Shown: positions 44,821-63,868 of the stretch, in pieces
Layout of the letters: each line of letters starts with the position of its first letter
Position numbering within the stretch: position 1 is the stretch's first letter
Origin: a virus
Taxonomy: Duplodnaviria > Caudoviricetes
DNA: 64,000 bases
Direction: 5' to 3' (one strand)
IMG/VR virus record: IMGVR_UViG_2582581314_000001
Span: 1-64,000 of that record
Program-made: the position numbers and the translations under genes
The notes under the pieces: generated by a model
Told to the model about the DNA's origin: nothing
The model's database searches: none
What the model saw: the letters and a program-made list of their open reading frames with translations, nothing else

Positions 44821-46386
44821 TCAGCCGATGCGGCGCCCGTACGCCGACGCTGCGCCGCTCGGCCGGGCGCCGGGCTGCGGGGCTTGCGGGAGCGGGGCAT
44901 GGACGATGGCGCCCTGGTTGGCGTCCGGGATCAGCCCGTACACGAGGATGCAGGAGGCGTCGATCCGGCCCGGCGAGTCCGGGTCGCTGGACTGCCACGT
45001 CGCCCACTCGCGTTCCATGTCCGTGAACACACCACGGAAGCGGACCTTGTCCTGCACCATCTGCTGCGCAATCGGCTCAGCGCGGAGCAACTTGCCCTGC
45101 TTGGCCCGCACCGGGGCGATGGCGGGCATCAGCTTGCCCTTGGGGATCTCCCCGTCGTTCTGGAGCTTCTCCCACGACGTCTGGATGGCCAGCACGCACA
45201 TGTCGCGGCCAAAGTTCCACTCGACATAGATGATCGCCGCGTCCGTGCGGTGCGCGAGCCGGCACGCCGCCGTGGACCACTCGGCCGACGGCATCGCCGC
45301 CGAGACGTCGTCGGTGATCCATACGCGGCCGTCGTCGCCGAGGAACCCGCCGATGACGCCGGCAACGTCCCGGCCGCCACCCGAGGGGTCGATAGCGACG
45401 GCGATCTTCTGCGGCTCCACGGGCGTGGTGGTGTCCCGCAGCAGGCGCAGCAGTTCCTCGGACACGAGCGCTCCTTCTGCAGGCTGCGGGTCGCCCTGGG
45501 CGAGGGCGTGCCAGTCCCGCACGATCGAGGTCTTCTTCATGTCCGCCCACCAGGCCAGGAGTGCCTTCCGGTCACGGGTGGGGATCTTCGGGTGCGGCAG
45601 CGGGTCGCCGGGGTTGCGGCCGAGCGGGTCGGGGCCGAACTTCGGGTCGGCGATCGCCGGGAGGTGGATCACCTTCCACCGGCCGCCGTCCTCGATGCGG
45701 CCCTCTTCCTGGAGGCGGCGCCCAGCGAAGTCGTCCGGGTGCCAGCGGGTCTGGATGGCCACCACGGCATTGCGGTCCGGCTGGAGGCGCTTGAGGGCGG
45801 TGGACGAGTACCAGTCGTGCAGCGCCCTCCGGGAGGCCTCCGATTCGGCGTCCGCGCGGTCCTTGTGCGGGTCGTCGACGATCAGCAGGTTCACCGGGTA
45901 GCCGGTCAGGCCCTTGCCGACAGACACGGAGCGGACGCCGCCACTCTTGGTCAGCTCCCAGTCCTGCATCGCCCCGGAGCCGGCCCGCAGGTACAGCTCC
46001 CACTCGTCGCCGTACTCCTCAACGTAGGAGCGGATCGTCTTGCCGCGCTTCAGCGCCAGGTCGTCGGAGTAGGAGGTGGCCGCGATCCGGTCCATCGGGT
46101 AGGTGCACAGCCACCAGAAGGGGAACCACTCGGCGACCGTCGTGGACTTGCCGACCTGGGGCGGGGTCAGGATGAGCAGCCGGTCGGTCTCGCCGCGCCC
46201 CACCTCGGCGAGGGCGTCTCCGATGATCCGTAGGTGCGGGCGCATCCGGAACGTGGAGTCGAGGCCGCGAGCGAGCGTCACCGGATCCCGCAGCAGGTCG
46301 GCGCTCATGGACCGCTGCGCGGCGTGCAGCCGCCGGTAGACCTCCGCGTCGTCCAGGTGCTCCAGCTCGCTCAGGGCCGTCGTCAC
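44821..46386 (-). CDS. terL: Terminase large subunit
   Basis: PPQVGKS (Walker A), LLIVDDPHK (Walker B), IQTRWH.DD, AIDPS, SPGRIDA. Confidence 0.93.
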   Translation of the reverse strand: MTTALSELEHLDDAEVYRRLHAAQRSMSADLLRDPVTLARGLDSTFRMRPHLRIIGDALAEVGRGETDRLLILTPPQVGKSTTVAEWFPFWWLCTYPMDRIAATSYSDDLALKRGKTIRSYVEEYGDEWELYLRAGSGAMQDWELTKSGGVRSVSVGKGLTGYPVNLLIVDDPHKDRADAESEASRRALHDWYSSTALKRLQPDRNAVVAIQTRWHPDDFAGRRLQEEGRIEDGGRWKVIHLPAIADPKFGPDPLGRNPGDPLPHPKIPTRDRKALLAWWADMKKTSIVRDWHALAQGDPQPAEGALVSEELLRLLRDTTTPVEPQKIAVAIDPSGGGRDVAGVIGGFLGDDGRVWITDDVSAAMPSAEWSTAACRLAHRTDAAIIYVEWNFGRDMCVLAIQTSWEKLQNDGEIPKGKLMPAIAPVRAKQGKLLRAEPIAQQMVQDKVRFRGVFTDMEREWATWQSSDPDSPGRIDASCILVYGLIPDANQGAIVHAPLPQAPQPGARPSGAASAYGRRIG

Positions 46387-46979
46387 GTCTGCTCCTCCTC
46401 GTCGTCTCCGCCGTCCACGGCCTTGATCCGCTGGTTCACCTGGGCTGTGAGCTCGGCGAGCCGGGCACGGCGCAGGTCCGGGGACATCTGCGCGAACTCG
46501 GCGAACTGCTGCGCCAGCGCGTTGGAGCCCTCACCGGTGACGGCGATCGTCTCGGTGGGGTCGCCGAACAGCACCCGGCGGTGCCGCATGGCGACGTCCA
46601 TCAGCCGGATGAAGTCGCCCGGGGACAGCTCAGCCGCGTTCAGCGACGTGAGCCGCTGGGCGAGCTTGCCGATCGCCGCGCCCAGGATCTTCGCGTCTGT
46701 CTCGGCCGCTTTCCGGCGCTCCTCCAGCCACATCGCCTGGTACTGCCGGTCCAGGTGCCGGTCGTACGCCTCGACGCGGTCCCGCCACCGGTACTGGGCG
46801 GCGAGGTTCCTCACGTGCCCGTACGCGAGTGTCAGTCTCTGCGCGGCTTCGGTCAGGGTGCGGGTCCTGCCGATGTCTCGGTACGCGGTGAACTGTCCGT
46901 GTTTGTGGGGGGTCTCGTTGGGCTGACGTTCCCACGGGTCCAGGTCGGGGTCGAGTGTGATGGGTGGGCGGGTGCTCAT
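46383..46979 (-). CDS. Terminase small subunit (probable)
   Basis: Directly upstream of terL; PWERQPNE...F..YRD.G..R...W..R...YD. Confidence 0.75.
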   Translation of the reverse strand: MSTRPPITLDPDLDPWERQPNETPHKHGQFTAYRDIGRTRTLTEAAQRLTLAYGHVRNLAAQYRWRDRVEAYDRHLDRQYQAMWLEERRKAAETDAKILGAAIGKLAQRLTSLNAAELSPGDFIRLMDVAMRHRRVLFGDPTETIAVTGEGSNALAQQFAEFAQMSPDLRRARLAELTAQVNQRIKAVDGGDDEEEQT

Positions 46980-47923
46980 GCCGCTTCGCTGGGGACGTGG
47001 TTGGGGCCGGAGAGGTACTCACCTGCCAGGCGTTCGAGGAGGCGCCAGCCCTGCCCTTGTTCGATCTCTCCGCGTCCTTCTGCGGCTGCGATGGCCTTGT
47101 TGATGGTGACGGCTGCGGGGGCTGGGAGGTGTCGGGCGCCGAGGACGGTCTCCAGTCCGACCTGACCGGTGTGCAGGGGCTCGCCCTGGGGGGAGGTGTA
47201 GCCGGCCTGGAGGTCGGTCAGGTGCGCCTCGACAATGCCGAGGATGGCGTGGAGGGCGGTGGCGACGTTGCCGACCTTGTGGGCGGCGTGGGTGGAGGCG
47301 AGCGTGTCCAACGTCTGGTCGTAGTCGGCGCGTGCGGCGAGCCAGCTTTCGTTCTGGCCGAGGCGGGCCTGTTCGAACGCCTCCCGGGCGGCGTCCAGCT
47401 CGTTGGGCAGGAAGATCAGGCTCACGGTGGCGAAGTCGAGGTTGGCTTCGGACAGGCCTTCGGGTGAGACCTCGGCGAGGAGGCCGAGGGCGTCGTCGTC
47501 GAGGCCGGAGTAGGCGCGCCAGTCGACGTCTTCGATCTGGTCGTACAGGGCCTTGAGCGTCGCCGGGTCGTCCTGCCCGTTGATCGCGTTGTGGGAGAGC
47601 TGGCGGGCCAGCAGCTCGTCTTTCTGCTGGGGGTCGTCGATCAGCATGCAGTCGATCTCGTCGAGCCCGACTTCCACGGCCGCCGCGGTGCGGTGATTGC
47701 CGGAGAGGATCAGCTCGCGGCCTTCCTCGTACTCCCCGGCGCCGTAGATCAGGGGGACGCTGGTGAGGCAGCCGTCGGCGGCGATGTTGGCGACGAGCCG
47801 GTCCCACTCCTCTTTCCGCATGAAGCGGGCGTTCATGTCGAGCGGGGTGAGGGTGCGCGGGTCGCGGCGGACGAGGCGGGGCCGGATCGTCTGCGCGGGC
47901 GTGGTGTGGGTGCTGTCGCTCAT
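46976..47923 (-). CDS. ParB/Srx-domain protein coupled to the DNA-modification gene
   Basis: NARFM, ILSGNHR..AA, LSHNAI.G.DD; ATGA overlaps on both sides. Confidence 0.82.
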   Translation of the reverse strand: MSDSTHTTPAQTIRPRLVRRDPRTLTPLDMNARFMRKEEWDRLVANIAADGCLTSVPLIYGAGEYEEGRELILSGNHRTAAAVEVGLDEIDCMLIDDPQQKDELLARQLSHNAINGQDDPATLKALYDQIEDVDWRAYSGLDDDALGLLAEVSPEGLSEANLDFATVSLIFLPNELDAAREAFEQARLGQNESWLAARADYDQTLDTLASTHAAHKVGNVATALHAILGIVEAHLTDLQAGYTSPQGEPLHTGQVGLETVLGARHLPAPAAVTINKAIAAAEGRGEIEQGQGWRLLERLAGEYLSGPNHVPSEAA

Positions 47924-49293
47924 CGGGTGTCCTCGTTCTTCTTCATGTCGCTGCCGTGCTTCCGCTTCCACAGGTCGAAGGCTTCGGCGAGGTCGTAGGC
48001 GCCGAGGGGGCCGCCGTACTGGAGCTGGTAGCGGTGGATTCCGTCGCCCGGGTCCTTCGCGCTCGCCTCGGTGCGTTTCTGGAGCTTCACGCCGGGGATG
48101 CCCCGGCCGTACTTCGCGCTGTTGGGCCGGTCGGTGAACGCCGTCGTCGACCAGGCGGTGAGCCGCTTCGACAGGGACCGCTGGAGCAGCAGTTGCGCCT
48201 CTTTGGTGGAGGCGGCCATGACGATGAGCTTGGCCAGGCGCCGGTACTTCGTCCACGACACCGGGAAGTCGGACATCAGGTAGGCGGTCGCCGGGTCGAA
48301 CTTCGGCGGGAGGAACGCGAACGCGCCGATCAGCTTCCCGTCGACCGCGACCCCACAGGCGAGGAGCGGGCTGCCGGGCTTGATCGACTTCGACATGAAC
48401 TGGGAGCGGATGCCGGCGAACTGGCCGCCGGTGAGGACGTGCAGGCTCATGCGGTCGCCGAGGTCCTCGCCGACGCCGATCTTCTGCATGGGGATCGGTT
48501 CGACGGGCTGCCGAGGCCGGACGATGCGTCGGGGTCCGGCGGCGGCATACACATAGATCGGCAGGCCGCGGTTCGCGGTCTGGACGACGCCGGCGAGCCG
48601 GTGGCGCAGCTCCGGGCGTTCGATGTGCAAGCCCAGCACCCAGTGGGGCCGGTCCTGTACCTGCGCGATGATCTCTTCCTTGCCGTCTTCGGTCAGCTCG
48701 CCGAAGTCGGGCTCGGGCCAGTCGAACGCGGCGTCGATGCTCGCGAACTGCGAGACGTAGTCGCCCGCGTAGAACGGCGGGAACATCACGACCGGTGCTT
48801 CGTCGGGGACCTCTTCGCGGAGGTAGGTGCGCACGTCCCCGGCGTAGAAGCTCCCGAGGCGGGTTTCGAGGCTCCGGAGCTTCGTCGCGGTCTTCTCGTG
48901 CATGCGCGGCCACTGGTCCTGTGTGGCGTCGAGCATCCGCCGGTAGTAGGCGCCTTCCTTCCCGACGTACTGGAGGAAGCGGGTGCCGAGCATCAGCGTC
49001 GCCAGGCGGTCAGCGCGGTCCTCCATGTACGGGGCGAGCCAGCCCAGCGAGTCCTCGTACTCCGGGCGCAGCGCGTACGGCAGTTCCTCCCCCGCGAGGA
49101 ACCAGCCCAGCGCGCACGAGTACGCGGTGATGTCGTTGCCATGCACCGGCCGCGAGTTGCCGAACCGGGAGTGCAACACCCGCTCGATCGTGAAGTTGCC
49201 CGAGCAGCCGACGTAGATGTCGGTCTCGGGCCAGGTCCCGGCGTGTTCGTAGATGATCGAGCGGAGGGGGGCGGGTATCGAGCCGTGGAACAT
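47920..49293 (-). CDS. Putative DNA-modification enzyme: N-terminal adenine-MTase-like fold fused to a C-terminal GNAT/Mom-like domain
   Basis: VGCSGNFTIE, NDI and FPPFY (MTase-like motifs I, II, IV); GVAVDGKLIGAFAF, YLMSDF, RLAKL and TTAFT...SAKY (GNAT-like). Confidence 0.65.
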   Translation of the reverse strand: MFHGSIPAPLRSIIYEHAGTWPETDIYVGCSGNFTIERVLHSRFGNSRPVHGNDITAYSCALGWFLAGEELPYALRPEYEDSLGWLAPYMEDRADRLATLMLGTRFLQYVGKEGAYYRRMLDATQDQWPRMHEKTATKLRSLETRLGSFYAGDVRTYLREEVPDEAPVVMFPPFYAGDYVSQFASIDAAFDWPEPDFGELTEDGKEEIIAQVQDRPHWVLGLHIERPELRHRLAGVVQTANRGLPIYVYAAAGPRRIVRPRQPVEPIPMQKIGVGEDLGDRMSLHVLTGGQFAGIRSQFMSKSIKPGSPLLACGVAVDGKLIGAFAFLPPKFDPATAYLMSDFPVSWTKYRRLAKLIVMAASTKEAQLLLQRSLSKRLTAWSTTAFTDRPNSAKYGRGIPGVKLQKRTEASAKDPGDGIHRYQLQYGGPLGAYDLAEAFDLWKRKHGSDMKKNEDTR

Positions 49294-49381
49294 AGGCCGC
49301 TCCTTGATCGTCGCTCTGAGGCGGGCGGAGATGGTAGCCGAGCTGCGGCTTTCTCCCGTGACCAAGAATCGGCGGGCATGC

Positions 49382-49440
49382 GGAAAGCCCCCGCCCTGGG
49401 GTGGGCGGGGGCCATCGTGGTACGCCTCTTGAGCGTGGTT
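49382..49440 (-). repeat. Degenerate copy of the tRNA 3' end plus terminator (partner of 50984-51050)
   Basis: ggaaagcccccgccctggggtgggcgggggccatcg-tggtacgcc-tc-ttgagcgtggt versus ggaaggcccccgccatggcgtgggcgggggccttcata-tggagcgcc-ggccacgac-ttgaacgtggt. Confidence 0.7.
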
Positions 49441-49467
49441 CTGCGCCTGTCCCTAAGAAGGGCTACA

Positions 49468-50538
49468 TCACCGCTTGCCGCAGCAGGGGGCCACTGAGCG
49501 AGCAGGCGCGGGCAGATACGTAAAGCCGTCCGCCCCTTCGAGCCCACTCAGGTGTCGGGCCTCGTTCTGCCGACAGGTGATGAACAGCGGGCGGCCCACC
49601 CACTGGCGGTTGAGCTCATCGATGGCGGCGGCTCTGCGCTCCGAGGGAAGCTCATCGAAGCCGTCGAAGATGGGGAACACGCGCCCACCCTCGATGAGAC
49701 GGCGGGACAGTGTGGGGCGCAGACCCAAGTACTTCTTCAGTGTGCTGATGACATAGTCCTCACATGACGTGACGTCAGGGTTCCAGTCCCTCATCTGGAC
49801 CCCCACAGGGATTCGCCGACGCTCATTCGCCGGCACGTCAAGCAGCCGGTGAGCGATCAACCCGCGGTAGCGGGGCCTGGCTGATCCTGGAGGACTGGCG
49901 AGGATGACGCGGCCTTCTGCGGGCCTCTTGAACAAGAGCCTGTTCATTTTGTGCTGACGGTAGCTGGACCGGATCACAAGGATGAGGGTGATGAATGCAG
50001 CCATGGCGCCTGCGCCCATGGCAAACCACATCAAATAGGCTCCGGCGACTGCGACCATAAGGGCCATTCCGCCGGCGACACCGGCTCGCATCGCGATCTC
50101 GACCGCGGAGGTTGGCGCTGCATGACGCCCACGCTTCGGCCGGCGCGCGCTTCGATTCTGGAGTCCAGCCTTCACGCTGGCCTTCGCTGCGAGGAATCCG
50201 CCACCTGCGGCCAGCGGAATCGCGAAGGTCATGCCGTCGATGAATCGCAGGAACCAGTGACGGTCACGGTTTTCGAGGATGCTCCAGAGCTCTGCCTTCC
50301 ACTCCTGACCTTGGTACTCCCATTCCGCCTTCGGCATGCCGAGCCTGGCGAACTTGAGGATAAGGAAGGGCAGACGCAGCGTCATCTTCCGCGTCAGCGC
50401 CATGGCCACCTCATAGAGCATGGCAGCGGGGATCGCGACGACGAGTGCGGTGCGCCAGCCTACGAAGTCCTCGCCGAGGAACGTCGGTCCGTGCTCGGCG
50501 GACTTGCCCGCCAGCTCGGCGACGATGCCGTGGTACAT
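49468..50538 (-). CDS. Membrane protein with a truncated/degenerate NACHT-like domain
   Basis: TM helices; degenerate Walker A (ILASPPGSAR), PIFDGFDEL, ITCR; ends early. Confidence 0.55.
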   Translation of the reverse strand: MYHGIVAELAGKSAEHGPTFLGEDFVGWRTALVVAIPAAMLYEVAMALTRKMTLRLPFLILKFARLGMPKAEWEYQGQEWKAELWSILENRDRHWFLRFIDGMTFAIPLAAGGGFLAAKASVKAGLQNRSARRPKRGRHAAPTSAVEIAMRAGVAGGMALMVAVAGAYLMWFAMGAGAMAAFITLILVIRSSYRQHKMNRLLFKRPAEGRVILASPPGSARPRYRGLIAHRLLDVPANERRRIPVGVQMRDWNPDVTSCEDYVISTLKKYLGLRPTLSRRLIEGGRVFPIFDGFDELPSERRAAAIDELNRQWVGRPLFITCRQNEARHLSGLEGADGFTYLPAPARSVAPCCGKR

Positions 50539-50543
50539 GAGGC

Positions 50544-50882
50544 TTAGATCCCCTCCGCGACAGGGCCTGCGTTCCACCCCGGCGACGAGGCCGGCGGCCT
50601 TACGCGGTGACTAAGTTCGGCCAGCGCCAGGTGCGCCTCTCGGGCACCACGGGCAGTCAGGGTGTAGTAGCGGCGGGCCGGGCGGCCTGCTTCGCTCGGG
50701 TCGATGTCTTCGGCCTTGCCCTCGACCCAGCCGGCCCCCTCGAAGCGCCGGAGCGCGGGGTAGAGGGATCCGCTGGAAACGTGGGCCTTCTTGATCAGCT
50801 CCATGCCGAAGTGAGGCTCGTCCGGGTCTTCAAGGAAGGCCTGGAGCAACCTCACGACTGCGGGCGTGAGTTTGAAGTCCAT
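50544..50882 (-). CDS. PadR-family regulator (leaderless)
   Basis: SSGSLYPALRRFE..GWV and RRYYTLT..G; TACTCT-N6-ATG. Confidence 0.88.
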   Translation of the reverse strand: MDFKLTPAVVRLLQAFLEDPDEPHFGMELIKKAHVSSGSLYPALRRFEGAGWVEGKAEDIDPSEAGRPARRYYTLTARGAREAHLALAELSHRVRPPASSPGWNAGPVAEGI

Positions 50883-50984
50883 GGACAGAGAGTACACCCC
50901 CTCAGTCACCACCCGACATAGGTATGAACAGTAAACTCGCCACCCGATATAGGGGGTTGAGCAGAGCGGGAGGTCAGAGACAGG

Positions 50985-51018
50985 GAAGGCCCCCGCCATG
51001 GCGTGGGCGGGGGCCTTC
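50985..51018 (-). terminator. Terminator hairpin after the tRNA
   Basis: gaaggcccccgcc...ggcgggggccttc. Confidence 0.7.
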
Positions 51019-51021
51019 ATA

Positions 51022-51095
51022 TGGAGCGCCGGCCACGACTTGAACGTGGTCCTTCCCCCTGGAAGGGGGCCGTGCGGCGGTTACACCTCCGGCGC
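51022..51095 (-). tRNA. tRNA-Gly(TCC), atypical
   Basis: GCGCCGG-AG-GTGT/AACCGCC/GCAC-G-GCCCC/CTTCCAG/GGGGA-AGGA-CCACG/TTCAAGT/CGTGG-CCGGCGC-T-CCA (74 nt). Confidence 0.85.
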
Positions 51096-51355
51096 GTGGC
51101 CCGATCGTGCCGCTGCTCGAAACGACCGGACGTCCGGATCGTACATCAGCCCTACCGCCATGGCGATCATGGAAACGTCCTCTCGTGGCTGGTAGGCGGG
51201 GCGGAAGTCCGGCCGGGATGGCCGTGGTTCCGCCTGTGGCCGCCTCGTTGCGCGGGCTTGGGGTGGTGGAGGGCTCGGGGGATTGGACGGCTTAGACGGG
51301 CTGGAGGCCAGGGAACAGGTCGAGTTGGTCCGCGGTACGGTCCTCGGCCTGCCGG

Positions 51356-51412
51356 GCGAGCGCCATAGAGGCCCGGGACACCGTCCGTGTCCCGGGCCTC
51401 TATGGCGCTCGC
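51356..51412. terminator. 26-bp perfect-stem hairpin ending the early operon
   Basis: gcgagcgccatagaggcccgggacac-cgtcc-gtgtcccgggcctctatggcgctcgc. Confidence 0.7.
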
Positions 51413-51421
51413 TGAGGTTGG

Positions 51422-51763
51422 TCAGTTGGCAGTGGGTCGGTCGCACGGCCAGCACGCGGTCAGGCCGTACTTGGCGTAGATGAGGGCGCCCGCCTTGTTC
51501 TCGAACTGGGCGGCGCCCTCGGTGTCGTGGTCGCACTGGTGGTGGAGAAGGCCGATCCTGGTGGTGCGCAGGGTGACCCCGTCGTCCCCTCGGATGACGT
51601 ACGGTTCTCCGCCCTCGGTGTCGTACACATGGTGCCTGTCCGGGCCGTCGCCCTCGGCGGGCTCGATGCGGTTCAGGACGGCGATCGCGGTCGGGGCGAT
51701 GACGAGGGTCACGCTGCTGGTGATCTCCACGGCGTACGGGGTGGCGGGCTCGCTGGTGGTCAT
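51422..51763 (-). CDS. Hypothetical early protein
   Basis: GGAAGG RBS; GC3-rich ORF. Confidence 0.65.
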   Translation of the reverse strand: MTTSEPATPYAVEITSSVTLVIAPTAIAVLNRIEPAEGDGPDRHHVYDTEGGEPYVIRGDDGVTLRTTRIGLLHHQCDHDTEGAAQFENKAGALIYAKYGLTACWPCDRPTAN

Positions 51764-51797
51764 GGATGCCTTCCGGGTGGATCTGGTTGGATCGTGG

Positions 51798-51832
51798 TGA
51801 GGCCGGGGAGCGCTGCCTGCTCCCCGGCCTCA
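51798..51832 (-). repeat. AGGCAGY-loop hairpin, copy 1
   Basis: 14-bp stem, loop AGGCAGC. Confidence 0.7.
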
Positions 51833-51851
51833 TCTGCTGCTTTCAGGCAGG

Positions 51852-52472
51852 TCAGCTCTGCGCCGCCGGCTGCACCTCGGCCGCCTCAGATGCGGCCAGG
51901 ACGTGGACGGCGGACCGCGCACCGGCCGGGCGGGGGCCGTAGCACAGGTACTCGCCCCACTCGTCGTTCACGCGCTTGCCGGAGCTGTCCCAGATGAGCA
52001 GTCGGCTGCACTGGGCGCACTTCCCGGCGTCCTCCCCCGGTGTCCCGTGCGGCTGGTCGTCGGCGGTCGGGGCGGTGTCCTGCGCCTGGTCCTTGTAGGG
52101 GTCCTCGGGCAGGGCGACGAGGAACCCGCCGGACTCGCGCGGGATCGGCTTCCAGTCGGCCGCACGAAGCAGGCTGTTGGAGCGGTTGAAGGAGAGCATG
52201 TCGAGCAGCGTGTCCCGGATGTGCTGCCGGGTCGGGGCGCTCATCTTGCGGAACATGGCCCCGTCGTTGAACCGCCAGATGGTGTCCTCGCCGTCGCGCA
52301 CGGAGGTCAGCACGCTGCCGTTGACGGTGATGGCGGTGGCTGTGGGCAGCTCTTCGCGGATCAGGTGGGCGATGAGGAGGAGGCCACGGTCGATGACCTC
52401 GCGCCGCTTCTTGCCGGCGTCCCGGTAGGCGTCCTCGAAGTATTCAGTCCAGAAGGCCTTGTTGGCGGGCAT
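51852..52472 (-). CDS. Hypothetical early protein (shared FEDAY...HL.R..LP domain)
   Basis: GAAGGGA RBS; C-terminal CAQC. Confidence 0.7.
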   Translation of the reverse strand: MPANKAFWTEYFEDAYRDAGKKRREVIDRGLLLIAHLIREELPTATAITVNGSVLTSVRDGEDTIWRFNDGAMFRKMSAPTRQHIRDTLLDMLSFNRSNSLLRAADWKPIPRESGGFLVALPEDPYKDQAQDTAPTADDQPHGTPGEDAGKCAQCSRLLIWDSSGKRVNDEWGEYLCYGPRPAGARSAVHVLAASEAAEVQPAAQS

Positions 52473-52554: not shown

Positions 52555-53301
52555 CTAGGAGTTCGCCCGGTCGAAGCCCTGGAGGGCGACAACGGTCTGG
52601 TGGAGGTTCTCCACGCCGTAGATGCCGATTCCGGCGACGTCGATGGCGGTGAGGTCGTCGTCCGCGATGAACGCGATCGTGCAGCCGCTGGCGATGGCGG
52701 AGCGGACGGCTTCGTTGACGTCGGGCACGGGCCGCACTCGGCCGTCGAGGCCGAGTTGGCCGATGAACGCGACGTTGGCCATGGCGTTGGGGCCGTAGTG
52801 TCCTGCCGCGCCGAGGATCGCGCAGGCGATGGCGAGGTCGTGCATGCTGCCCAAGGGGCGGGCGGCGACGCTCTCGACCGTGACCGTGACGCGACCAGCG
52901 GGCCAGTCGTAGCCGCCGTTGATGATGGCGGCACGGGTGCGGTCCCTTGTCTCCCGCTCGTGGCTGACGCCTTCGACGATGTACGAGTGGTGGGTGGGGC
53001 TGACCGTCGCATGGATCACGGCGGCGGAGTCGCTGGCGGCACGCACCTTGGCCCGGCCGCGACTTGGAGTGGTCCGCTCGGCGGGCCAGGCGACTCCCCG
53101 GCCGTGGCCGTCGGCGTCGACGACGAGGCCTGTGCGGTACACGGCGTCTCCCGCCACGTAGTTCGGGGTGGTGACGTCGTTGAGGATCCCGTCGGGCTGG
53201 GTGTCGAGGACCACGTACTTCAGGTTGTAGGGGTTGCCGTCTTCGGTGAGGACGGCATCGCGGATGACGCCGATGCGGGTCGGGCGGGCGATGGTGGCCA
53301 T
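52555..53301 (-). CDS. Protein with a ComM/YifB (Mg-chelatase ChlI-like) N-terminal S5-fold domain, no ATPase
   Basis: TRDRTRAAIINGG..WP...VTV, HDLAIA.AIL, IGQLGLDGRVRPV. Confidence 0.75.
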   Translation of the reverse strand: MATIARPTRIGVIRDAVLTEDGNPYNLKYVVLDTQPDGILNDVTTPNYVAGDAVYRTGLVVDADGHGRGVAWPAERTTPSRGRAKVRAASDSAAVIHATVSPTHHSYIVEGVSHERETRDRTRAAIINGGYDWPAGRVTVTVESVAARPLGSMHDLAIACAILGAAGHYGPNAMANVAFIGQLGLDGRVRPVPDVNEAVRSAIASGCTIAFIADDDLTAIDVAGIGIYGVENLHQTVVALQGFDRANS

Positions 53302-53381: not shown

Positions 53382-54320
53382 TTACTTGTCGGCGACTGCC
53401 TTGAGGAAGGCCAGGGCGTCGTGTAGGTCGCGCACGCCGACCAGGGCGACGTCCGGGTGTGAGGTGGCGGCCTCGGCTGCCTGCTCTTCGGAGACCACGA
53501 ACTTCTGATCGCCGACCGCAATTGCGGACCGCATGAGGACGTCGAGGTTGTGGACTGGGCGCACCCGGCCGTCGAGGTCGAGTTGGCCGATCAGGGTCAC
53601 GCCGCTCACGGCGCTCGGGGGGATGTGGCCGGAGGCGGCGAGGGCGGTGCAGGCCAGTGCGAGGTCGGCGGCTGAGCTGCCGCGTTCCATCGTCCAGTGG
53701 GCAGTGACGTTCAGCTCGCCGAGCGCCCACTGGATGTCGCTGTTGACGATGCCCGCGCGAATCCGTTCGGCGGTCCCCCGGACGTACTTCGGGTTCGGGC
53801 CGGTGAGCTTGAAGGCGTACTCCCCCGGTGTGAACTCGGCGTGCACCTTGGCCGGGCCTTCCGGGGTGGGGAAGTAGCTGGTTGCGGTCTGCCGCACGGC
53901 CAGTGCCGAGTGGTCGGCTGCCTCCGGTGCCGGGGCTTCCGGCAGGCGGATCGTGCGGAAGGGCAGGCCCTGCGGGGCCGCCTTCCAGCCTGCTGCGCCG
54001 GCCAGGCTGCCGAAGGGCGTCGTGTCGGAGAGGATGCCCTTGACCTCGTCGGTGATGCTGTCGGGCAGGCCGTGTCCCGCAGCGGTCGGGGCGTGCCACA
54101 GGACGTTGCCCTTGGCGTCCGCCGCCTCGTGCAGCTCCATCTCGTCGGTGTCGACGGTGAGCGTCGCGGCTTCGGGCAGGTGCGTACGGACGAGGTGGGC
54201 GGCGTACGCGACCGCGCGGGAGTAGAGGGTGCGTCGGGCAACGCTGGCGGCCTGGTAGGCGTCCTCGAAGGACTTGGAGTGGACGGCCGTTTCAAGGTCG
54301 GTGTGCAGGCTGTCAGCCAT
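53382..54320 (-). CDS. FEDAY-domain plus ComM/YifB N-terminal-domain protein, no ATPase
   Basis: ERIRAGIVNS, ADLALA..AL, IGQLDLDGRVRPV. Confidence 0.75.
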   Translation of the reverse strand: MADSLHTDLETAVHSKSFEDAYQAASVARRTLYSRAVAYAAHLVRTHLPEAATLTVDTDEMELHEAADAKGNVLWHAPTAAGHGLPDSITDEVKGILSDTTPFGSLAGAAGWKAAPQGLPFRTIRLPEAPAPEAADHSALAVRQTATSYFPTPEGPAKVHAEFTPGEYAFKLTGPNPKYVRGTAERIRAGIVNSDIQWALGELNVTAHWTMERGSSAADLALACTALAASGHIPPSAVSGVTLIGQLDLDGRVRPVHNLDVLMRSAIAVGDQKFVVSEEQAAEAATSHPDVALVGVRDLHDALAFLKAVADK

Positions 54321-55250: not shown

Positions 55251-55340
55251 GATCTACATTCATTCTTCCCGAGTCGGCTTGCCCTAGCCAGTTAGAACAA
55301 GCCGATTCAGTAAAAGAACTTCTAAGAAACCGCAGGTCAG
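55251..55340 (-). repeat. Early hairpin/promoter repeat, copy 2
   Basis: Near-identical to copy 1. Confidence 0.85.
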
Positions 55341-57055
55341 GCAGCGAGTTCGAAGCGGCTGATCTCCTGGCCGGTGATGCACTCGACGAGCGCGCAGTAG
55401 AGAACCTCGGCGACCGCCGGGGTAACGGCGTTGCCGAGCTGGCGGACCTGGTGCCGCTTCGAGCCGAGGACCTTGTAGCCGGGCCGGAAGGCCATCGCCC
55501 GGTGGATCTCCTTCGGCTGGAGCATGCGAAACAGGATCTCGTCGAGCGTGAAGTTCTTCTTCACCAGCGCATACCGGTCGCGGGTCGGCATGGCCCCGAT
55601 CGGCTGGTCGACCGGGCGGGCCTGCCCGTTGCCGTAGTACGGGACGAGCAGGTGCTCGGGCATGTCCACCAGGCCGTGATGGTTGCCTCCGGCCGAGACC
55701 GTGTGGAGCGGGTGGCCGAGGTGCCGCGCCTTCTCCTTGTCGCCACCGCCGCGCATGGGGACCACGAACGGCGCGTGTGCGATGGCGAGTTCCGCGCGGG
55801 CCGTCTGGGTGCGCATCGGCTCGTCCACCCGCATCGGCTTCTTGCCGGTGCGGCCTTCGCAGGGCACGAGGAAGGGCGGGAAGGCGATGCCGTCGGTCTC
55901 GACCGTTGTGCGGGTCGGCATCGGCACGTCCACGCTGATCGCGTTGTTCCGCCAGGTCCCGCCGGCCGGGACGAGGAGCGGGCCGGGCTCGGCGCCGGGC
56001 TCGGCGTCCATGTCGCCGAACAGCGAGCCTTGGCCGTCTTCTTCGTCCATGCCCCAGCCCCAGTATTGGGCGCCTCCGGCGCGGACGCGGGCGATCGTGG
56101 CCGGGGCGAGGCCCTCGGGGCAGTCGTCCGTCTTCTCCCGGTCGCCGATCGGCGTGCCCAGGATCGAGAAGTCGATGGCCGCTGCTGCCGGGAGGACGGA
56201 GGGCTCAACGATCGCGCGGCAGCGCGCGTTCGGGCACCGGTAGTCGTAGCTCTGGCGGTAGCGCCCCATGTCCTTGCCGGGCTTGCGGAAGACCTGGACG
56301 GCGCGGACCTCTTCGTCGCAGTCGGAGCACCACGCGTCGGGGCGCAGTACCCATTTGTCGAAGTCCGGGTTGCGGCCGATGCTCTCGTGCCAGTAGACGA
56401 AGTACAGCCTGTCCCTGCTTTGTGGGACACGGAGCATGGTGCGCGGGGCGACGTGCATCGAGTTGATGGCGAGGAGCTTCGTGCGGTAGCCCAACTTGTG
56501 GAACTCGCCCACCCACCGGTCCCACTGGTCCCAGTCCCGGCAGTCGATCACGTTCTCGACCACTCCGGCGAGGACCAGGCCGCCGCGGTTGATGACGCCC
56601 CGCAGGTACATCGGGACTTCTTCCATCAGGGCGCGCGAGCGCTCCTCGGCCGCCCGCCGCTCCTTCTCGCTCTTGAACTCCTCCTCTTCGAAGTCGAAGT
56701 CGCCCTGCATGGTGCGGTCGAAGTCGCGTTTGACGCCCCTGGCTGCGCTCCACTTCGGGCATTCCGGGCTCGCCCAGAAGAGCTGGCAGACCGGCCATTT
56801 CTCGACCGGGGCCCGGCGGATGTCGCCCTTCCACACATCGCAGTCCGGGTTGTTCCACGCGTGCGTGGCGAGGGCGACGTCCCAGTGGTTCGCCGCCCGT
56901 GTGACCTGCACGCCGGGTACCGCGTCCCCGCCCTGCGTGTCGCCGCCGGCCCCGCAGAACCAGCTCATGGCGGTCAGCACGCTGCCGTCGTGCTTGTAGG
57001 CGCGTGCCGGACTGCTGGCTGCCCAGGCCTGAGTGGTGGCGTCTATGTAGGGCAC
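55337..57055 (-). CDS. C5-cytosine DNA methyltransferase
   Basis: FCGAGG (I), WASPEC (IV), VENV (VI), PQSRDR (VIII), QLGNAV (X). Confidence 0.92.
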   Translation of the reverse strand: MPYIDATTQAWAASSPARAYKHDGSVLTAMSWFCGAGGDTQGGDAVPGVQVTRAANHWDVALATHAWNNPDCDVWKGDIRRAPVEKWPVCQLFWASPECPKWSAARGVKRDFDRTMQGDFDFEEEEFKSEKERRAAEERSRALMEEVPMYLRGVINRGGLVLAGVVENVIDCRDWDQWDRWVGEFHKLGYRTKLLAINSMHVAPRTMLRVPQSRDRLYFVYWHESIGRNPDFDKWVLRPDAWCSDCDEEVRAVQVFRKPGKDMGRYRQSYDYRCPNARCRAIVEPSVLPAAAAIDFSILGTPIGDREKTDDCPEGLAPATIARVRAGGAQYWGWGMDEEDGQGSLFGDMDAEPGAEPGPLLVPAGGTWRNNAISVDVPMPTRTTVETDGIAFPPFLVPCEGRTGKKPMRVDEPMRTQTARAELAIAHAPFVVPMRGGGDKEKARHLGHPLHTVSAGGNHHGLVDMPEHLLVPYYGNGQARPVDQPIGAMPTRDRYALVKKNFTLDEILFRMLQPKEIHRAMAFRPGYKVLGSKRHQVRQLGNAVTPAVAEVLYCALVECITGQEISRFELAA

Positions 57056-57095
57056 GTCGTTCTCTCCTCGCTGGGGTGGGGGTAGGTGGTGCACT

Positions 57096-60074: not shown

Positions 60075-60153
60075 CATTCTTTCCAAATCAGCTTGTCCTA
60101 GCCAGTTTTAACAACCTGATTTGGCGAAGAAGATCTAAAAAAGTCCAGGTCAG
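60075..60153 (-). repeat. Early hairpin/promoter repeat, copy 4
   Basis: Arms CAAATCAGCTTG/CAACCTGATTTG, same loop core. Confidence 0.8.
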
Positions 60154-60977
60154 GTGAGCGCGAACAGGTCGAGCTGTCGGGGCTGGCGCTGGTGCCAGCC
60201 GTGGGTCGGCAGGGGGCCGCCGGTCTCGGCGTCGACGACCAGGAGCACGGTGCGCACGCTGGTCCCGGACGGCGCGAACGACTCGGCGGGCAGCGGGATG
60301 AACTCCCCCTCGGCGAGGGCGATCAGCTCGCGGAACTCGACGGTCGCCCGGTCGCTGTGCCACATGACCGACTCGGGCATGACCGCGATGAGCGTGCCGT
60401 CGTCGTCGAGGAACCCGAACCCGTGGATGGTGTGCTGCACGGCCGCCGCGAAGGGAGGGTTCATCAGCACCCGGCGGTAGCCGTGCGGGCAGTCGAGCGG
60501 GTCGAGGTCGAGGAAGTCCGCCTCGACCACGCGGCGGGCGGCGCCCTGTTCGCGGAGGACGCGCACGCGCCGCTCGTCGATCTCCACGCAGTCGACGACC
60601 GCGCCGCGTCCGGCCGCCGGCCCCACGATGGAGCCGGTACCGGCCGACGGCTCAAGGACGCTCATGCCCTGCTTGATGTTCGCGTGCTCCAGGATGTCGT
60701 GCACGACGCGCGGCGGTGTCGGGTACCAGCCCTGCTCGTACCGGCTGGGGAACTCGCGGGTGGCGAGGCAGGCCCGCATGAACTCCTCGACGGGGAACGG
60801 GAAGACGTGGGCGCGAACCGCGTTGCGGCCGTCCCACCGGCCGCCGATCTCCTTCAGGACCTTGTTCACCTGCTCGTACTGGGCGCGGTCCAGCTCGAAC
60901 GGGATCTGAACCCGCTCGCCGCTGACGACCGTGCGGTTGTCGGTGAGGACGTCGTAGACGCCGCTTGGGATCTCCAT
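60150..60977 (-). CDS. Amino (N6-adenine-type) DNA methyltransferase
   Basis: WYPTP, VLEPSAGTG, MNPPF; C-terminal QLDLF. Confidence 0.85.
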   Translation of the reverse strand: MEIPSGVYDVLTDNRTVVSGERVQIPFELDRAQYEQVNKVLKEIGGRWDGRNAVRAHVFPFPVEEFMRACLATREFPSRYEQGWYPTPPRVVHDILEHANIKQGMSVLEPSAGTGSIVGPAAGRGAVVDCVEIDERRVRVLREQGAARRVVEADFLDLDPLDCPHGYRRVLMNPPFAAAVQHTIHGFGFLDDDGTLIAVMPESVMWHSDRATVEFRELIALAEGEFIPLPAESFAPSGTSVRTVLLVVDAETGGPLPTHGWHQRQPRQLDLFALT

Positions 60978-62603: not shown

Positions 62604-62635
62604 GTCATGTCCCTTCGGGGGGTGTGGGGTGGTTT

Positions 62636-62724
62636 GAACTACTTTCATTCTTTCCGAATCAACTTGCCCTAGCCAGTTTTGACAAGCAGTTTTGGCAAAA
62701 GAACTTCTATGAAAGCGCAGGTCA
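62636..62724 (-). repeat. Early hairpin/promoter repeat, copy 5
   Basis: Same core CCCTAGCCAGTT and CGCAGGTCA end. Confidence 0.8.
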
Positions 62725-63785: not shown

Positions 63786-63820
63786 CGCGGTTGCCTCCGT
63801 GGGCGCGTTCGGGGATGAGT

Positions 63821-63868
63821 CCGGCCCGGTGCTCGGGGCGCTTGAGAGCGCCCCGAGCACCGGGCCGG
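63821..63868. terminator. 22-bp stem hairpin
   Basis: ccggcccggtgctcggggcgct-tgag-agcgccccgagcaccgggccgg. Confidence 0.6.

What the first reader, a model, noticed from the sequence alone, without database searches (positions are those of the whole stretch)
46976..51095. Candidate tRNA-dependent DNA hypermodification system: dedicated non-proteinogenic tRNA-Gly + MTase-GNAT(Mom-like) fusion + ParB-like partner
Seen: a 74-nt tRNA (51095-51022) keeps the GlyRS identity elements (G1-C72, C2-G71, G3-C70, U73, anticodon UCC, encoded CCA) but has lost features of translating tRNAs. It has A at position 8, no G18G19 (D-loop AACCGCC), a G27.A43 mismatch, a possible C32-G38 pair closing the anticodon loop, and C49-G65/A51-U63 in the T-stem. 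Downstream, translationally coupled to the terminase genes, are a 457-aa protein with MTase-like N-terminal motifs (FPPFY) and a GNAT-like C-terminus, and a ParB/Srx protein. Established: staphylococcal non-proteinogenic tRNA-Gly, used by GNAT-fold Fem transferases, also lack the D-loop GG and carry EF-Tu-weak T-stem pairs such as A51-U63. Phage Mu Mom is a GNAT-fold enzyme that adds a glycine-like acetamido group to adenine N6; I recall it being reported to use Gly-tRNA, which should be verified. Inference: the element encodes its own EF-Tu-evading Gly-tRNA as donor for an anti-restriction base modification made at packaging time.
Basis: partly seen in the sequence, partly recalled or inferred. 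Interest (0 to 1): 0.92.

Follow-up and report, generated by a model that had tools for sequence, protein, structure and literature searches.

The report
Phage DNA-modifying enzyme with private tRNA-Gly
This Streptomyces-type phage carries an odd glycine tRNA gene that travels, in phages of several bacterial phyla, with a two-domain enzyme (a methylase-like fold joined to an acyltransferase fold) and a ParB-like gene just before the DNA-packaging genes, so the tRNA probably hands glycine to phage DNA and not to ribosomes.

Summary
A 74-nt cloverleaf sits at 51022-51095(-); ARAGORN at default settings and Rfam's tRNA model both miss it. The 457-aa protein is Pfam DAM-like-phage1 + GNAT-phage-like, and the next gene is ParB-like. 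Four genes down to the large terminase overlap by 4 nt each.

The tRNA is not chance. A glycine-type tRNA lies beside homologues of the enzyme in 17 of 18 close viral loci, 75 of 80 genome loci (Actinomycetota, Bacillota, Chloroflexota, Dormibacterota), and phages Jeon, Sting and Clawz. It is rarer in distant clades (42 of 63 and 18 of 53 loci).

Across 83 distinct copies, G1-C72, C2-G71, U73, C35 and C36 never change. Position 34 varies freely, 24 copies lack U33, and 32-38 covaries as a base pair.

The best reading is a Mom-like, Gly-tRNA-dependent modification of phage DNA, fed by a private tRNA. This is inferred, not shown. The GNAT domain matches Mom only in fold (Z 10.7, tied with generic GNATs), and the Dam-like domain lacks the catalytic D/N/S of motif IV.

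No modified base, charging or EF-Tu behaviour has been tested. This scan has noted the same module before on other DNA. I found no paper on it.

The parts
51022..51095 (-). Private tRNA-Gly(UCC)-like gene, 74 nt with encoded CCA
   Evidence: Sequence. ARAGORN finds it only at -ps90. R1 covariance model gives 89 bits, E 1.3e-16. The cloverleaf is supported by covariation in relatives.
50985..51018 (-). G+C-rich terminator-like hairpin directly after the tRNA, with no U-tract
   Evidence: Sequence. A second copy lies at 49382-49416. The same hairpin follows the tRNA in relatives L014 and L030. The simple terminator scan does not call it.
49417..50983 (-). Inserted cassette separating the tRNA from the enzyme gene: PadR regulator (50544-50882) and an ORF (49468-49806, possibly longer). 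Not part of the module.
   Evidence: PadR matches PF03551 at 7.1e-11. In L014 and L030 the tRNA-hairpin and the enzyme's upstream region are contiguous, and the hairpin is duplicated at both ends of the insert here. In L020 the related cassette lies upstream of the tRNA.
49382..49416 (-). Second copy of the terminator hairpin, just upstream of the enzyme gene
   Evidence: 89% identical over 35 nt to 50985-51018; blastn.
47920..49293 (-). 457-aa fusion enzyme. The Dam-like class I methyltransferase-fold domain is residues 2-272 (48478-49290). The GNAT-fold domain is residues 280-447 (47953-48456).
   Evidence: PF22555 at 1.8e-102 and PF22559 at 1.1e-55; phrog_7858. AlphaFold models have pLDDT 85.5 (whole protein) and 91.4 (GNAT domain). 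Fold matches. FPPF is invariant in 39 of 39 sequences.
46976..47923 (-). ParB-like (ParB N-terminal domain) partner, 315 aa. Its start codon overlaps the enzyme's stop codon (ATGA).
   Evidence: phrog_7405 at 8.7e-62 plus ParB-like PHROGs. Homologues are named 'ParB N-terminal domain-containing protein', and some carry PF02195. A homologue lies downstream of the enzyme in 98 of 101 loci.
46383..46979 (-). Small terminase subunit, overlapping the ParB-like gene by 4 nt (context)
   Evidence: phrog_6299 at 7.6e-22. Present in 84 of 101 loci.
44821..46386 (-). Large terminase subunit, overlapping TerS by 4 nt (context)
   Evidence: phrog_38 at 6.7e-82; PF03237 at 1.1e-05.

Best explanation
This is a three-part phage module placed at the head of the packaging operon. 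It consists of (1) a phage-encoded tRNA that host GlyRS can still charge with glycine, (2) a fusion enzyme and (3) a ParB-like helper.

Proposed mechanism, all of it inferred. The tRNA is transcribed as its own unit and ends at its hairpin. Host GlyRS charges it through G1-C72, C2-G71, G3-C70, U73, C35 and C36. The Dam-like domain has kept the fold, the glycine-rich loop, the acidic residue after strand 2 and the PP-aromatic pocket, but has lost the catalytic D/N/S of motif IV. It binds double-stranded phage DNA and flips out a base, most likely adenine. The GNAT domain then moves the glycyl group from the tRNA's 3' end to the base's exocyclic amine, as Mu Mom does. The product may rearrange to N6-carbamoylmethyl-dA, as it does with Mom. 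The ParB-like protein may load or activate the enzyme on dsDNA near packaging.

What is shown: the parts exist, they are conserved together, and the tRNA keeps synthetase identity while its decoding features drift. What is not shown: charging, the donor role, the target base, the product and any protection from restriction.
For: 1. Linkage. A Gly-type tRNA lies within the fetched flanks of the enzyme gene in the following sets.
- 17 of 18 close IMG/VR loci. The miss is L022.
- 75 of 80 genome loci. 73 come from R1 at 49 bits or more, and L102 and L104 come from the search with filters off. 74 are on the same strand and L100 is opposite. L033, L067, L092, L097 and L098 have none.
- 3 of 3 cultured phages examined, out of 15 INPHARED records that hit. 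Jeon has an annotated tRNA-Gly(tcc) abutting gene 68. Sting and Clawz have unannotated copies.
The hosts span Actinomycetota, Bacillota, Chloroflexota and Dormibacterota (record titles). At default ARAGORN settings the tRNA next to the gene was Gly-type or of unassigned anticodon in every locus that had one. The only other default calls were odd ones: an 89-nt 'Arg' on the opposite strand in L052 and L058, and a 97-nt 'Ser' in L274.

2. The RNA is a real folded family. 97.9% of cells are paired, 19 of 22 pairs show changes on both sides, and 0 of 500 shuffles reach the observed values. Slid controls give 29-44% paired. These alignments were fitted to the model.

3. Selection fits charging better than decoding. 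Counts over 83 distinct copies:
- G1-C72 83, C2-G71 83, G3-C70 81, U73 83, C35 83, C36 83.
- Position 34: U 58, C 17, A 7, G 1.
- Position 33 is not U in 24.
- Position 8 is A in 26.
- 47 have no GG in the D-loop.
- G55 in 17.
- The anticodon loop is 6 or 8 nt in 4.
- 32-38 is C-G 51, G-C 11, U-G 5 and paired in 97.2% of cells.
Only 5 of 19 family loci reach Rfam's tRNA gathering score, whereas host tRNA-Gly copies score 70.2 and 54.9 bits. The conserved positions are those listed as GlyRS determinants in Rietmeyer et al. (PMC7826273, passage seen).

4. Precedent. Mu Mom, a GNAT, transfers glycine from Gly-tRNAGly to N6 of adenine in dsDNA (PMC13219725; abstract and section 10).

5. Folds. The GNAT domain gives Foldseek probability 1.00 and E about 1e-6 against GNATs. 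Mom 8bv8_B ranks 2 of 48,161 chains, with Z 10.7, rmsd 2.9 and 140 residues aligned. The N-terminal domain is a class I methyltransferase fold, and the longest alignments are to DpnM (Z 11.5, 196 residues), T4 Dam (11.0, 182) and E. coli Dam (10.8, 197).

6. Motif IV reads FPPF in 39 of 39 sequences and (F/Y/A)P(P/Q)xY-like in 13 distant ones. It is never D/N/S.

7. The ParB-like partner is kept in 98 of 101 loci. A phage ParB homologue is known to activate a DNA-modifying enzyme on dsDNA (O'Toole et al. 2026, PMC13229309; abstract).

8. GGA makes up only 71 of 1023 Gly codons in 28 long phage genes, so there is no evident need for an extra UCC decoder.
Against: - No chemistry has been shown. 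There are no data on modified bases, charging or expression, and no RNA run was listed.
- The GNAT domain is not a Mom family member. hhalign gives probability 0.1, Mom belongs to a different Pfam family, and Mom's Z ties with many generic acetyl-CoA GNATs.
- The Dam-like domain keeps a cofactor-type loop (G29-C30-S31-G32) and an invariant D54, so SAM binding and some methyl transfer are not excluded.
- The tRNA is not universal. It is missing in 21 of 63 and 35 of 53 more distant viral loci and in 5 of 80 genome loci. The enzyme must therefore be able to work without it, perhaps with host tRNA, or the link is looser than proposed.
- Host Streptomyces tRNA-Gly(UCC) shares the missing D-loop GG and the UGCAAU-type T-loop, and in one genome also C32/G38. 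Part of the oddness is inherited from a tRNA that presumably translates.
- Loci are not independent. Several IMG/VR loci are the same prophages as genome loci, and many contigs are near-identical.
- In this window the tRNA is 1.7 kb from the enzyme gene.
Confidence: 0.62

Rival explanations
1. The enzyme does use the private Gly-tRNA, but the acceptor is not adenine in DNA. It could be another base (cytosine N4 or guanine N2), RNA, a packaging or virion protein, or the ParB-like partner.
For: Nothing tested here fixes the acceptor. GNAT and tRNA-dependent transferases act on many acceptors, for example the Fem transferases on peptidoglycan precursors (PMC7826273 abstract). The N-terminal domain matches RNA methyltransferases (ErmE Z 12.7, Trm14 and TrmN 12.3) at least as well by Z as it matches Dam. 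Motif IV is not that of a known adenine methyltransferase.
Against: The longest structural alignments are to DNA adenine methyltransferases: DpnM, T4 Dam and E. coli Dam, with 182-197 residues aligned against about 141-161 for the RNA enzymes. The module sits with ParB-like and terminase genes, a setting that Iyer and colleagues described for DNA modification at packaging (PMC4738411, passage seen). The only known tRNA-dependent nucleic-acid GNAT, Mom, targets adenine N6 in dsDNA.
Confidence: 0.15
2. The tRNA is an ordinary phage accessory tRNA, and the enzyme is an unrelated SAM- or acetyl-CoA-using modification enzyme. The tRNA would serve translation, or act as a spare or decoy against host defences that attack tRNA-Gly, or replace a host tRNA lost on integration. 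The adjacency would reflect a shared insertion hot spot between early and late genes.
For: Phage tRNAs have been proposed to counter tRNA-inactivating defences (PMC13313380, passage seen). Some actinophages need their own tRNA for lysogeny (PMC10865867; passages and table seen). Toxins that single out tRNA-Gly exist: FaRel2 and AtaT2 (abstracts in the search listing only). Many family members are good tRNAs by ARAGORN's default settings. The host UCC isoacceptor shares several of the odd features. The module works without the tRNA in many distant loci.
Against: - The neighbouring tRNA is Gly-type in nearly every locus that has one.
- It sits mostly on the same strand, 30-300 nt upstream of this one gene, in phages of at least four phyla.
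- 24 of 83 copies lack U33, 4 have 6- or 8-nt loops, and 32-38 covaries as a pair.
- 14 of 19 sampled loci fail Rfam's tRNA threshold.
- GGA is rare in the phage's genes.
- No att-like match to the rest of the record was seen beyond the hairpin copy.
Confidence: 0.12
3. The tRNA-like element is a cis-acting RNA and is never charged. It could be an RNase P/Z processing site, a transcript-stabilising or regulatory structure for the late operon, or a relic attachment site.
For: It sits at the early/late boundary next to terminator-like hairpins. tRNA finders score this window's copy below threshold.
Against: A processing signal would not need C35, C36 and U73 to stay invariant in 83 of 83 copies while the neighbouring positions drift. 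C74 is kept in 82 of 83. In this window a 1.57-kb cassette and a terminator hairpin separate it from the operon, yet it is intact (89 bits). In L100, L166 and L234 it lies on the opposite strand, and in L231, L232 and L237 it lies downstream. That fits a trans-acting product.
Confidence: 0.06

Closest known systems
Bacteriophage Mu Mom (Pfam PF25680; PDB 8bv8; Silva et al. 2026, PMC13219725)
   Same: A phage GNAT-fold enzyme. Mom transfers glycine from Gly-tRNAGly to N6 of adenine in dsDNA, giving an anti-restriction hypermodification. The GNAT domain here superposes on Mom at Z 10.7, rmsd 2.9, 140 residues. The genetic link to a tRNA-Gly suggests the same donor.
   Different: No sequence or profile similarity, and a different Pfam family. 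Mom is a single-domain enzyme with an HTH-like insert and uses any host tRNA-Gly isoacceptor (section 10). Here the GNAT is fused to a Dam-like domain, is paired with a ParB-like gene, and usually carries its own tRNA. The main text of Silva et al. contains none of the words methyltransferase, ParB, Mycobacter, Gordonia or phage-encoded tRNA. I could not see its supplements.
Staphylococcal non-proteogenic tRNA-Gly with Fem transferases (Rietmeyer et al., PMC7826273)
   Same: Dedicated tRNA-Gly isoacceptors keep the GlyRS determinants but interact poorly with EF-Tu and the ribosome. They feed a GNAT-fold, tRNA-dependent transferase outside translation (abstract and passages).
   Different: The acceptor there is a peptidoglycan precursor, the tRNAs are chromosomal, and the lineage is restricted to staphylococci. 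Here the tRNA is phage-borne and linked to a DNA-enzyme-like fusion. The EF-Tu behaviour of this family is untested.
ParB-methyltransferase-terminase loci of phages (Iyer, Zhang and Aravind; as described in PMC4738411)
   Same: [quoted passage not shown]
   Different: Those loci hold working-type N6A methyltransferases. This one has a methylase fold without the D/N/S of motif IV, a fused GNAT domain and a tRNA gene.
ParB-dependent phage thymine dioxygenases (O'Toole et al. 2026, PMC13229309)
   Same: A phage ParB homologue without an obvious DNA-binding domain is needed for its cognate DNA-modifying enzyme to act on dsDNA (abstract). This is a model for what the ParB-like partner may do here.
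   Different: A different enzyme superfamily and different chemistry. I did not test any relationship between the two ParB groups.

Membership tests
Pfam PF22555 DAM-like-phage1 + PF22559 GNAT-phage-like (uncharacterised phage fusion family) | Both Pfam models matched above their curated cut-offs, in this order | tested here: met
   342.7 and 188.4 bits against cut-offs of 27. All of the 120 listed homologues carry PF22555, and 118 of them also carry PF22559.
Mom family (PF25680) | Sequence or profile membership | tested here: not met
   Pfam gives only PF22555 and PF22559. Mu Mom matches PF25680. hhalign of the family profile against Mu Mom gives probability 0.1.
Mom family (PF25680) | GNAT fold | tested here: met
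   Foldseek probability 1.00 against GNATs. Mom 8bv8_B has Z 10.7, rmsd 2.9 and 140 residues aligned, at rank 2 and tied with generic GNATs.
Mom family (PF25680) | HTH-like insertion and catalytic residues equivalent to R111 and S124 (Silva et al.) | not tested
   No residue-level structural alignment was available. Invariant candidates in this family are S392, K394, Y395 and R397, but their equivalence to Mom's residues is unknown.
Mom family (PF25680) | Uses Gly-tRNAGly as donor on dsDNA adenine | not testable with these tools
   The only support is the indirect genetic linkage to a tRNA-Gly gene.
Dam-type DNA N6-adenine methyltransferases | Class I methyltransferase fold with a Dam-like overall shape | tested here: met
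   DpnM Z 11.5 (196 aligned), T4 Dam Z 11.0 (182), E. coli Dam Z 10.8 (197). Many other methyltransferases tie, at Z 11-12.7.
Dam-type DNA N6-adenine methyltransferases | Sequence-family membership | tested here: not met
   No Pfam methyltransferase family matches at E<=10. hhalign against E. coli Dam gives probability 0.2.
Dam-type DNA N6-adenine methyltransferases | Motif IV (D/N/S)PP(Y/F/W). The motif definition is recalled from memory. | tested here: not met
   FPPF is invariant in 39 of 39 sequences. In 13 distant sequences the first residue is F, Y or A.
Dam-type DNA N6-adenine methyltransferases | SAM-binding glycine-rich loop and acidic residue after strand 2 | tested here: inconclusive
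   G29, C30, S31, G32 and D54 are invariant and lie after strands 26-29 and 50-54 of the model. No ligand modelling was done.
tRNA (Rfam RF00005), glycine-accepting | Cloverleaf supported by covariation | tested here: met
   97.9% of cells paired, 19 of 22 pairs with changes on both sides, 0 of 500 shuffles as high.
tRNA (Rfam RF00005), glycine-accepting | Reaches Rfam's gathering score | tested here: not met
   The window's copy gives no match. 5 of 19 relatives pass.
tRNA (Rfam RF00005), glycine-accepting | GlyRS identity elements (G1-C72, C2-G71, U73, C35, C36, as listed in PMC7826273) | tested here: met
   All are present in the window's copy and invariant in 83 of 83 distinct copies.
tRNA (Rfam RF00005), glycine-accepting | Decoding and elbow features: U33, an open 7-nt anticodon loop, G18G19, U55 | tested here: inconclusive
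   The window's copy has U33 and U55, but no GG, and has C32/G38. Family counts: 24 of 83 lack U33, 47 of 83 lack GG, 17 of 83 have G55, and 32-38 covaries. The host tRNA-Gly(UCC) shares some of these features.
ParB/Srx superfamily | ParB N-terminal domain | tested here: met
   No Pfam match for the window's copy at E<=0.1. It does match phrog_7405 at 8.7e-62 and several ParB-like PHROGs at 1e-9 to 1e-5. Close homologues are named as ParB N-terminal domain proteins, and some carry PF02195.

The most novel reading that the evidence does not exclude
A second, independently evolved class of tRNA-dependent DNA aminoacyl-transferases. In it, a methyltransferase fold that has lost its catalytic motif serves as the base-flipping, sequence-reading module for a fused GNAT. 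The phage supplies its own tRNA, which has been reshaped into a non-ribosomal glycine carrier: a 6-bp anticodon stem with a 5-nt loop showing only C35 and C36, a free position 34, frequent loss of U33, and a weakened elbow. This would be the first viral 'private' non-proteinogenic tRNA. A bolder variant is that the glycyl-adenosine end of the tRNA occupies the former SAM pocket, since both ligands are an adenosine carrying an amino acid.
Probability: 0.45. Interest if true: 0.9.

Novelty: new variant of a known kind. Interest (0 to 1): 0.82.

Why it matters
tRNA-dependent DNA hypermodification is known from one enzyme, Mu Mom, which borrows host tRNA. This module would show that the chemistry is widespread: 1326 cluster representatives match the enzyme profile at E<=0.001, in phages of several phyla. 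It would also show that the chemistry arose in a different GNAT family joined to a disabled methylase fold, and that phages evolve tRNAs for purposes other than translation.

It gives a concrete function to a class of 'odd' phage tRNAs that annotation pipelines miss or mislabel.

Cultured, harmless test systems exist: Gordonia phages Sting, Soos, Jollymon and Clawz, and Mycobacterium smegmatis phages such as Jeon. Nucleoside mass spectrometry on these would settle the question.

If the modification is sequence-specific, the enzyme-tRNA pair could become a tool for attaching an amino-acid handle to DNA.

Tried and rejected
- Energy alone. The cloverleaf's fold energy is only z -2.1 against shuffles, and ARAGORN at -ps90 gives 16 false calls in the record. 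I therefore dropped single-sequence evidence and relied on comparison with relatives.
- DNA search of the tRNA region against cultured phages (blastn): no match.
- Profile search of the enzyme family against PDB sequences: only chance matches to CaMKII around the PPF motif.
- Profile comparisons with Mu Mom and E. coli Dam: nothing.
- NCBIfam: no model for the enzyme, although sources name it 'putative antirestriction adenine methyltransferase'.
- Promoter and terminator consensus scan of 49200-51900: no promoter, and the G+C-rich hairpins are not called.
- Expression. No RNA holder was listed for 47900-51400, and read laying was not used.
- Earlier scan notes say that other clades carry Lys-, Arg- or Pro-type tRNAs. 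I tried to test this.
  - The profile search gave 1326 representatives.
  - I then built alignment A9 from 12 distant representatives plus the window's protein and scanned viral contigs.
  - In the 53 new loci, 18 had a Gly-type tRNA, counting L225's weak 29-bit match. None had a convincing non-Gly tRNA.
  - Rfam found no tRNA in the 12 of them that I sampled.
  - The claim is therefore neither reproduced nor excluded.
- Literature.
  - Zero papers for 'antirestriction adenine methyltransferase', 'DAM-like-phage1', 'GNAT-phage-like', PF22559 or PF22555.
  - The searches found no report of this fusion family or of its tRNA.
  - Subscription journals and supplements were not searchable.
- Attachment-site idea. 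The only internal repeat of the tRNA region is the hairpin copy, and the record's true tRNAs (Met and two Asn, at 93.3-93.7 kb) are unrelated.

Full report
WHAT THE WINDOW IS. The window is the first 64 kb of a 93.9-kb IMG/VR virus record with about 69% G+C. Nearly all credible genes lie on the minus strand (GC3-based ORF list). Read along that strand, the order is as follows. First come early genes, which include a C5 methylase domain, an N6 methylase, a canonical ParB with an HTH domain, and two ChlI-domain proteins. Then comes the region of the finding. After it come the terminase, portal-side and Mu-F-like genes, a glycosyltransferase, tail genes, an amidase and Ku. The closest protein relatives are Streptomyces prophage genes.

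THE OBSERVATION. It also has A8, D-loop AACCGCC, G27.A43, C32/G38, C49-G65 and A51-U63. The element is invisible to ARAGORN at default settings and to Rfam's tRNA model, even at E<=10. ARAGORN finds it at -ps90, but at that threshold 16 of 19 calls in the record are spurious. Its fold energy is only 2.1 sd better than shuffles. Taken alone, it would not pass.

The 457-aa ORF is PF22555 (DAM-like-phage1) plus PF22559 (GNAT-phage-like), at 1.8e-102 and 1.1e-55. The next ORF is ParB-like. Then come TerS and TerL. The four genes overlap by 4 nt each.

One correction to the picture. Between the tRNA and the enzyme gene lies a 1.57-kb insert with a PadR regulator and another ORF. In relatives L014 and L030 the tRNA, its hairpin and the enzyme gene are contiguous. 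Here the hairpin is present twice, once at each end of the insert.

THE tRNA IS REAL AND LINKED TO THE ENZYME. The first sign was Mycobacterium phage Jeon. Its gene 68 is 43% identical to the enzyme, and an annotated tRNA-Gly(tcc) abuts it. Gordonia phages Sting and Clawz have an unannotated, more degenerate copy in the gap before their homologue.

I built a covariance model, R1, from 21 copies and counted across four samples.
- Close viral loci: 17 of 18 have the tRNA. The miss is L022.
- Genome loci from one genome per species: 75 of 80. 73 come from R1 at 49 bits or more, and 2 more from the search with filters off. L033, L067, L092, L097 and L098 have none. L100 has it on the opposite strand.
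- A wider viral sample at 35-57% identity: 42 of 63. One of the 21 misses, L159, has no upstream DNA.
- A sample centred on the most distant representatives: 18 of 53.

The carriers come from Actinomycetota, Bacillota, Chloroflexota and Dormibacterota (titles). At default ARAGORN settings, every tRNA next to the gene was glycine-type (tcc, ccc, acc or gcc) or of unassigned anticodon. The only other default calls were an 89-nt 'Arg' on the opposite strand in L052 and L058 and a 97-nt 'Ser' in L274.

Two cautions apply to these counts. The samples overlap, because several IMG/VR loci are the same prophages as genome loci, and many contigs are near-identical. So the counts are not counts of independent events. 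Also, a subgroup at about 41% identity (L152-L164, L167, L168, L200) has no tRNA. Most of the seven members I read have instead a gene upstream whose conserved residues recall DUF488. I recognised that motif from memory and ran no scan on it.

STRUCTURE AND SELECTION. On the model-fitted alignment of 74 distinct genome copies, 97.9% of cells pair and 19 of 22 pairs show changes on both sides. No shuffle out of 500 reaches the observed values, and slid controls pair at 29-44% (the smaller set is). A fitted alignment leans towards its model, but the margin is large.

Over 83 distinct copies the pattern is as follows.
- The positions that Rietmeyer et al. list as GlyRS determinants do not change: G1-C72 83, C2-G71 83, U73 83, C35 83, C36 83. 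G3-C70 is kept in 81.
- The wobble base is free: U 58, C 17, A 7, G 1.
- U33 is lost in 24.
- Position 8 is A in 26.
- 47 copies have no GG in the D-loop.
- 17 have G55.
- 4 have anticodon loops of 6 or 8 nt.
- Positions 32 and 38 behave as a covarying Watson-Crick pair: C-G 51, G-C 11, U-G 5, with 97.2% paired. This would leave a 5-nt loop.

Only 5 of 19 sampled family loci reach Rfam's tRNA threshold. The host's tRNA-Gly(GCC) and tRNA-Gly(UCC) score 70.2 and 54.9 bits. This is the pattern expected of an RNA that is selected to be charged with glycine but released from decoding.

The main caveat is that the chromosomal tRNA-Gly(UCC) of two Streptomyces genomes also lacks the D-loop GG and has a UGCAAU-type T-loop. 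One of the two has C32/G38 and is missed by ARAGORN at default settings. Part of the oddness is therefore inherited, and I did not test whether those host tRNAs translate.

A small further point concerns pair 4-69. It is C-G in 68 of 83 private copies, but G-C in the three host tRNA-Gly sequences that I read. This could let an enzyme tell the two apart, which is an inference.

GGA is 71 of 1023 glycine codons in 28 long phage genes. I had no host codon table to compare it with.

THE ENZYME. The GNAT domain model (pLDDT 91.4) matches GNATs with Foldseek probability 1.00. In the search that does not depend on Foldseek, Mu Mom (8bv8_B) ranks second of 48,161 chains, with Z 10.7, rmsd 2.9 and 140 residues aligned. 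The top hit has Z 11.0, and 89 chains score Z 8 or more. So the similarity to Mom is real at fold level but not specific.

There is no profile similarity to Mom, and Mom has its own Pfam family. By my own reading of the sequence, against a motif I recalled, the stretch after strand 4 lacks the Q/R-x-x-G-x-G/A loop that binds CoA's pyrophosphate in acetyl-CoA GNATs. I did not test this.

The N-terminal domain has a class I methyltransferase fold. Many methyltransferases tie at Z 11-12.7, and the DNA adenine methylases DpnM, T4 Dam and E. coli Dam give the longest alignments. No sequence family of methylases matches.

The glycine-rich loop (G29-C30-S31-G32) and D54 are invariant. Motif IV, however, reads FPPF in 39 of 39 sequences and starts with F, Y or A in 13 distant ones. 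The polar residue that methylases use is absent. I read this as a base-flipping, DNA-reading module whose methyl-transfer role has been lost or changed. This is an inference.

THE PARTNER. A homologue of the ParB-like gene follows the enzyme gene in 98 of 101 loci. The three exceptions (L064, L069, L095) have truncated enzyme matches. A recent paper shows a phage ParB homologue acting as the activator of a DNA thymine dioxygenase on dsDNA (PMC13229309, abstract). That suggests, but does not show, a similar helper role here. I could not test binding.

WHAT IS KNOWN. Silva et al. (2023 preprint, which I saw in the search listing only; Nat Commun 2026, of which I read the abstract, section 10 and 'find' passages) show that Mom uses Gly-tRNAGly, accepts all three E. 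coli isoacceptors, and needs dsDNA. Their main text mentions no methyltransferase fusion, no ParB and no phage-encoded tRNA. I could not see their supplements, which may describe the architectures of homologues.

Iyer and colleagues described ParB-terminase loci with methylases (passages in PMC4738411). In 2021 they still assumed an acyl-CoA donor for Mom (passages in PMC7824862). Searches for the Pfam names, the accession numbers and the database name of this family returned no paper, and four further searches found no report of the fusion or its tRNA.

Within this scan, other agents reached the same reading on other genomes. I reached mine before opening those notes. They are not independent evidence. 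Their added claim, that other clades carry Lys-, Arg- or Pro-type tRNAs, I could not reproduce in the loci I was able to fetch. It remains open.

VERDICT. The module and its tRNA are real, conserved and unreported in the literature I could search. The most likely function is a Mom-like, tRNA-fed glycine transfer to phage DNA before or during packaging (confidence 0.62). The donor role, the target base, the product and the tRNA's exclusion from translation are all still to be shown. Cultured, harmless phages that carry the module make the decisive experiment easy.

Noticed in passing
window 55337-57094(-), 60150-60977(-), 62736-63860(-), 61401-62648(-): The early region holds three more methyltransferase-like genes: a C5 cytosine methylase domain at the C-terminus of a 585-aa protein, a weak RrnaAD-like match, and an N6_Mtase. 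It also holds a second, canonical ParB (ParB_N + HTH_ParB). The phage therefore carries several DNA-modification genes besides the module.
   Followed up: partly
window 52555-53301(-) and 53382-54320(-): Two neighbouring proteins each carry a ChlI (Mg-chelatase subunit-type) domain. Their role is unknown.
   Followed up: no
window 51356-51412: A long, nearly perfect G+C-rich hairpin after the 113-aa gene 51422-51763. It produced spurious microRNA-family matches in Rfam. It is probably a terminator.
   Followed up: no
L109:1501-1573 and L108:1501-1575 (chromosomes behind L029 and L039): The chromosomal tRNA-Gly(UCC) of two Streptomyces genomes lacks GG in the D-loop and has a UGCAAU-type T-loop. 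One copy has C32/G38 and is missed by ARAGORN at default settings. Both sit next to a normal tRNA-Gly(GCC). It may be worth asking whether this isoacceptor also serves the glycine cross-bridge of the cell wall; that idea comes from memory and is untested.
   Followed up: partly
L110:1501-1572 (G001, far from the prophage): A further R1 match (52.4 bits) in the same Streptomyces chromosome, with a degenerate anticodon loop. ARAGORN calls it only at -ps90, as 'tRNA-???'. I did not examine its context.
   Followed up: no
proteins P0016, P0020, P0027 and others of about 700 aa; loci L070, L090, L137: Some homologues of the enzyme are about 250 aa longer and are named Hint-domain proteins. The match to the query restarts at about residue 171-176, right at the FPPF motif. 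This suggests an intein inserted at the putative active site.
   Followed up: no
L105:2772-2923, L199:2771-2922, L170:1478-1626, L183:2761-2924: Some Bacillota-type loci carry two tandem Gly-type tRNAs before the enzyme gene, for example CCC plus ACC.
   Followed up: no
L152-L164, L167, L168, L200; also L161, L190, L192: Loci without the tRNA often have a gene just upstream of the enzyme whose conserved residues resemble DUF488 (recognised from memory, not scanned). In the high-G+C subgroup there is also a conserved non-coding stretch of about 150 nt.
   Followed up: no
window 26015-27997(-) and 4758-5534(-): A 660-aa family-4 glycosyltransferase that also matches the 'GT4-conflict' Pfam family lies among the structural genes. 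A Ku homologue lies near the end of the late region.
   Followed up: no
L231:4466-4540, L237:4475-4549, L232:2750-2824, L148:2760-2833: In a few distant loci the Gly-type tRNA lies downstream of the enzyme gene and not upstream.
   Followed up: no
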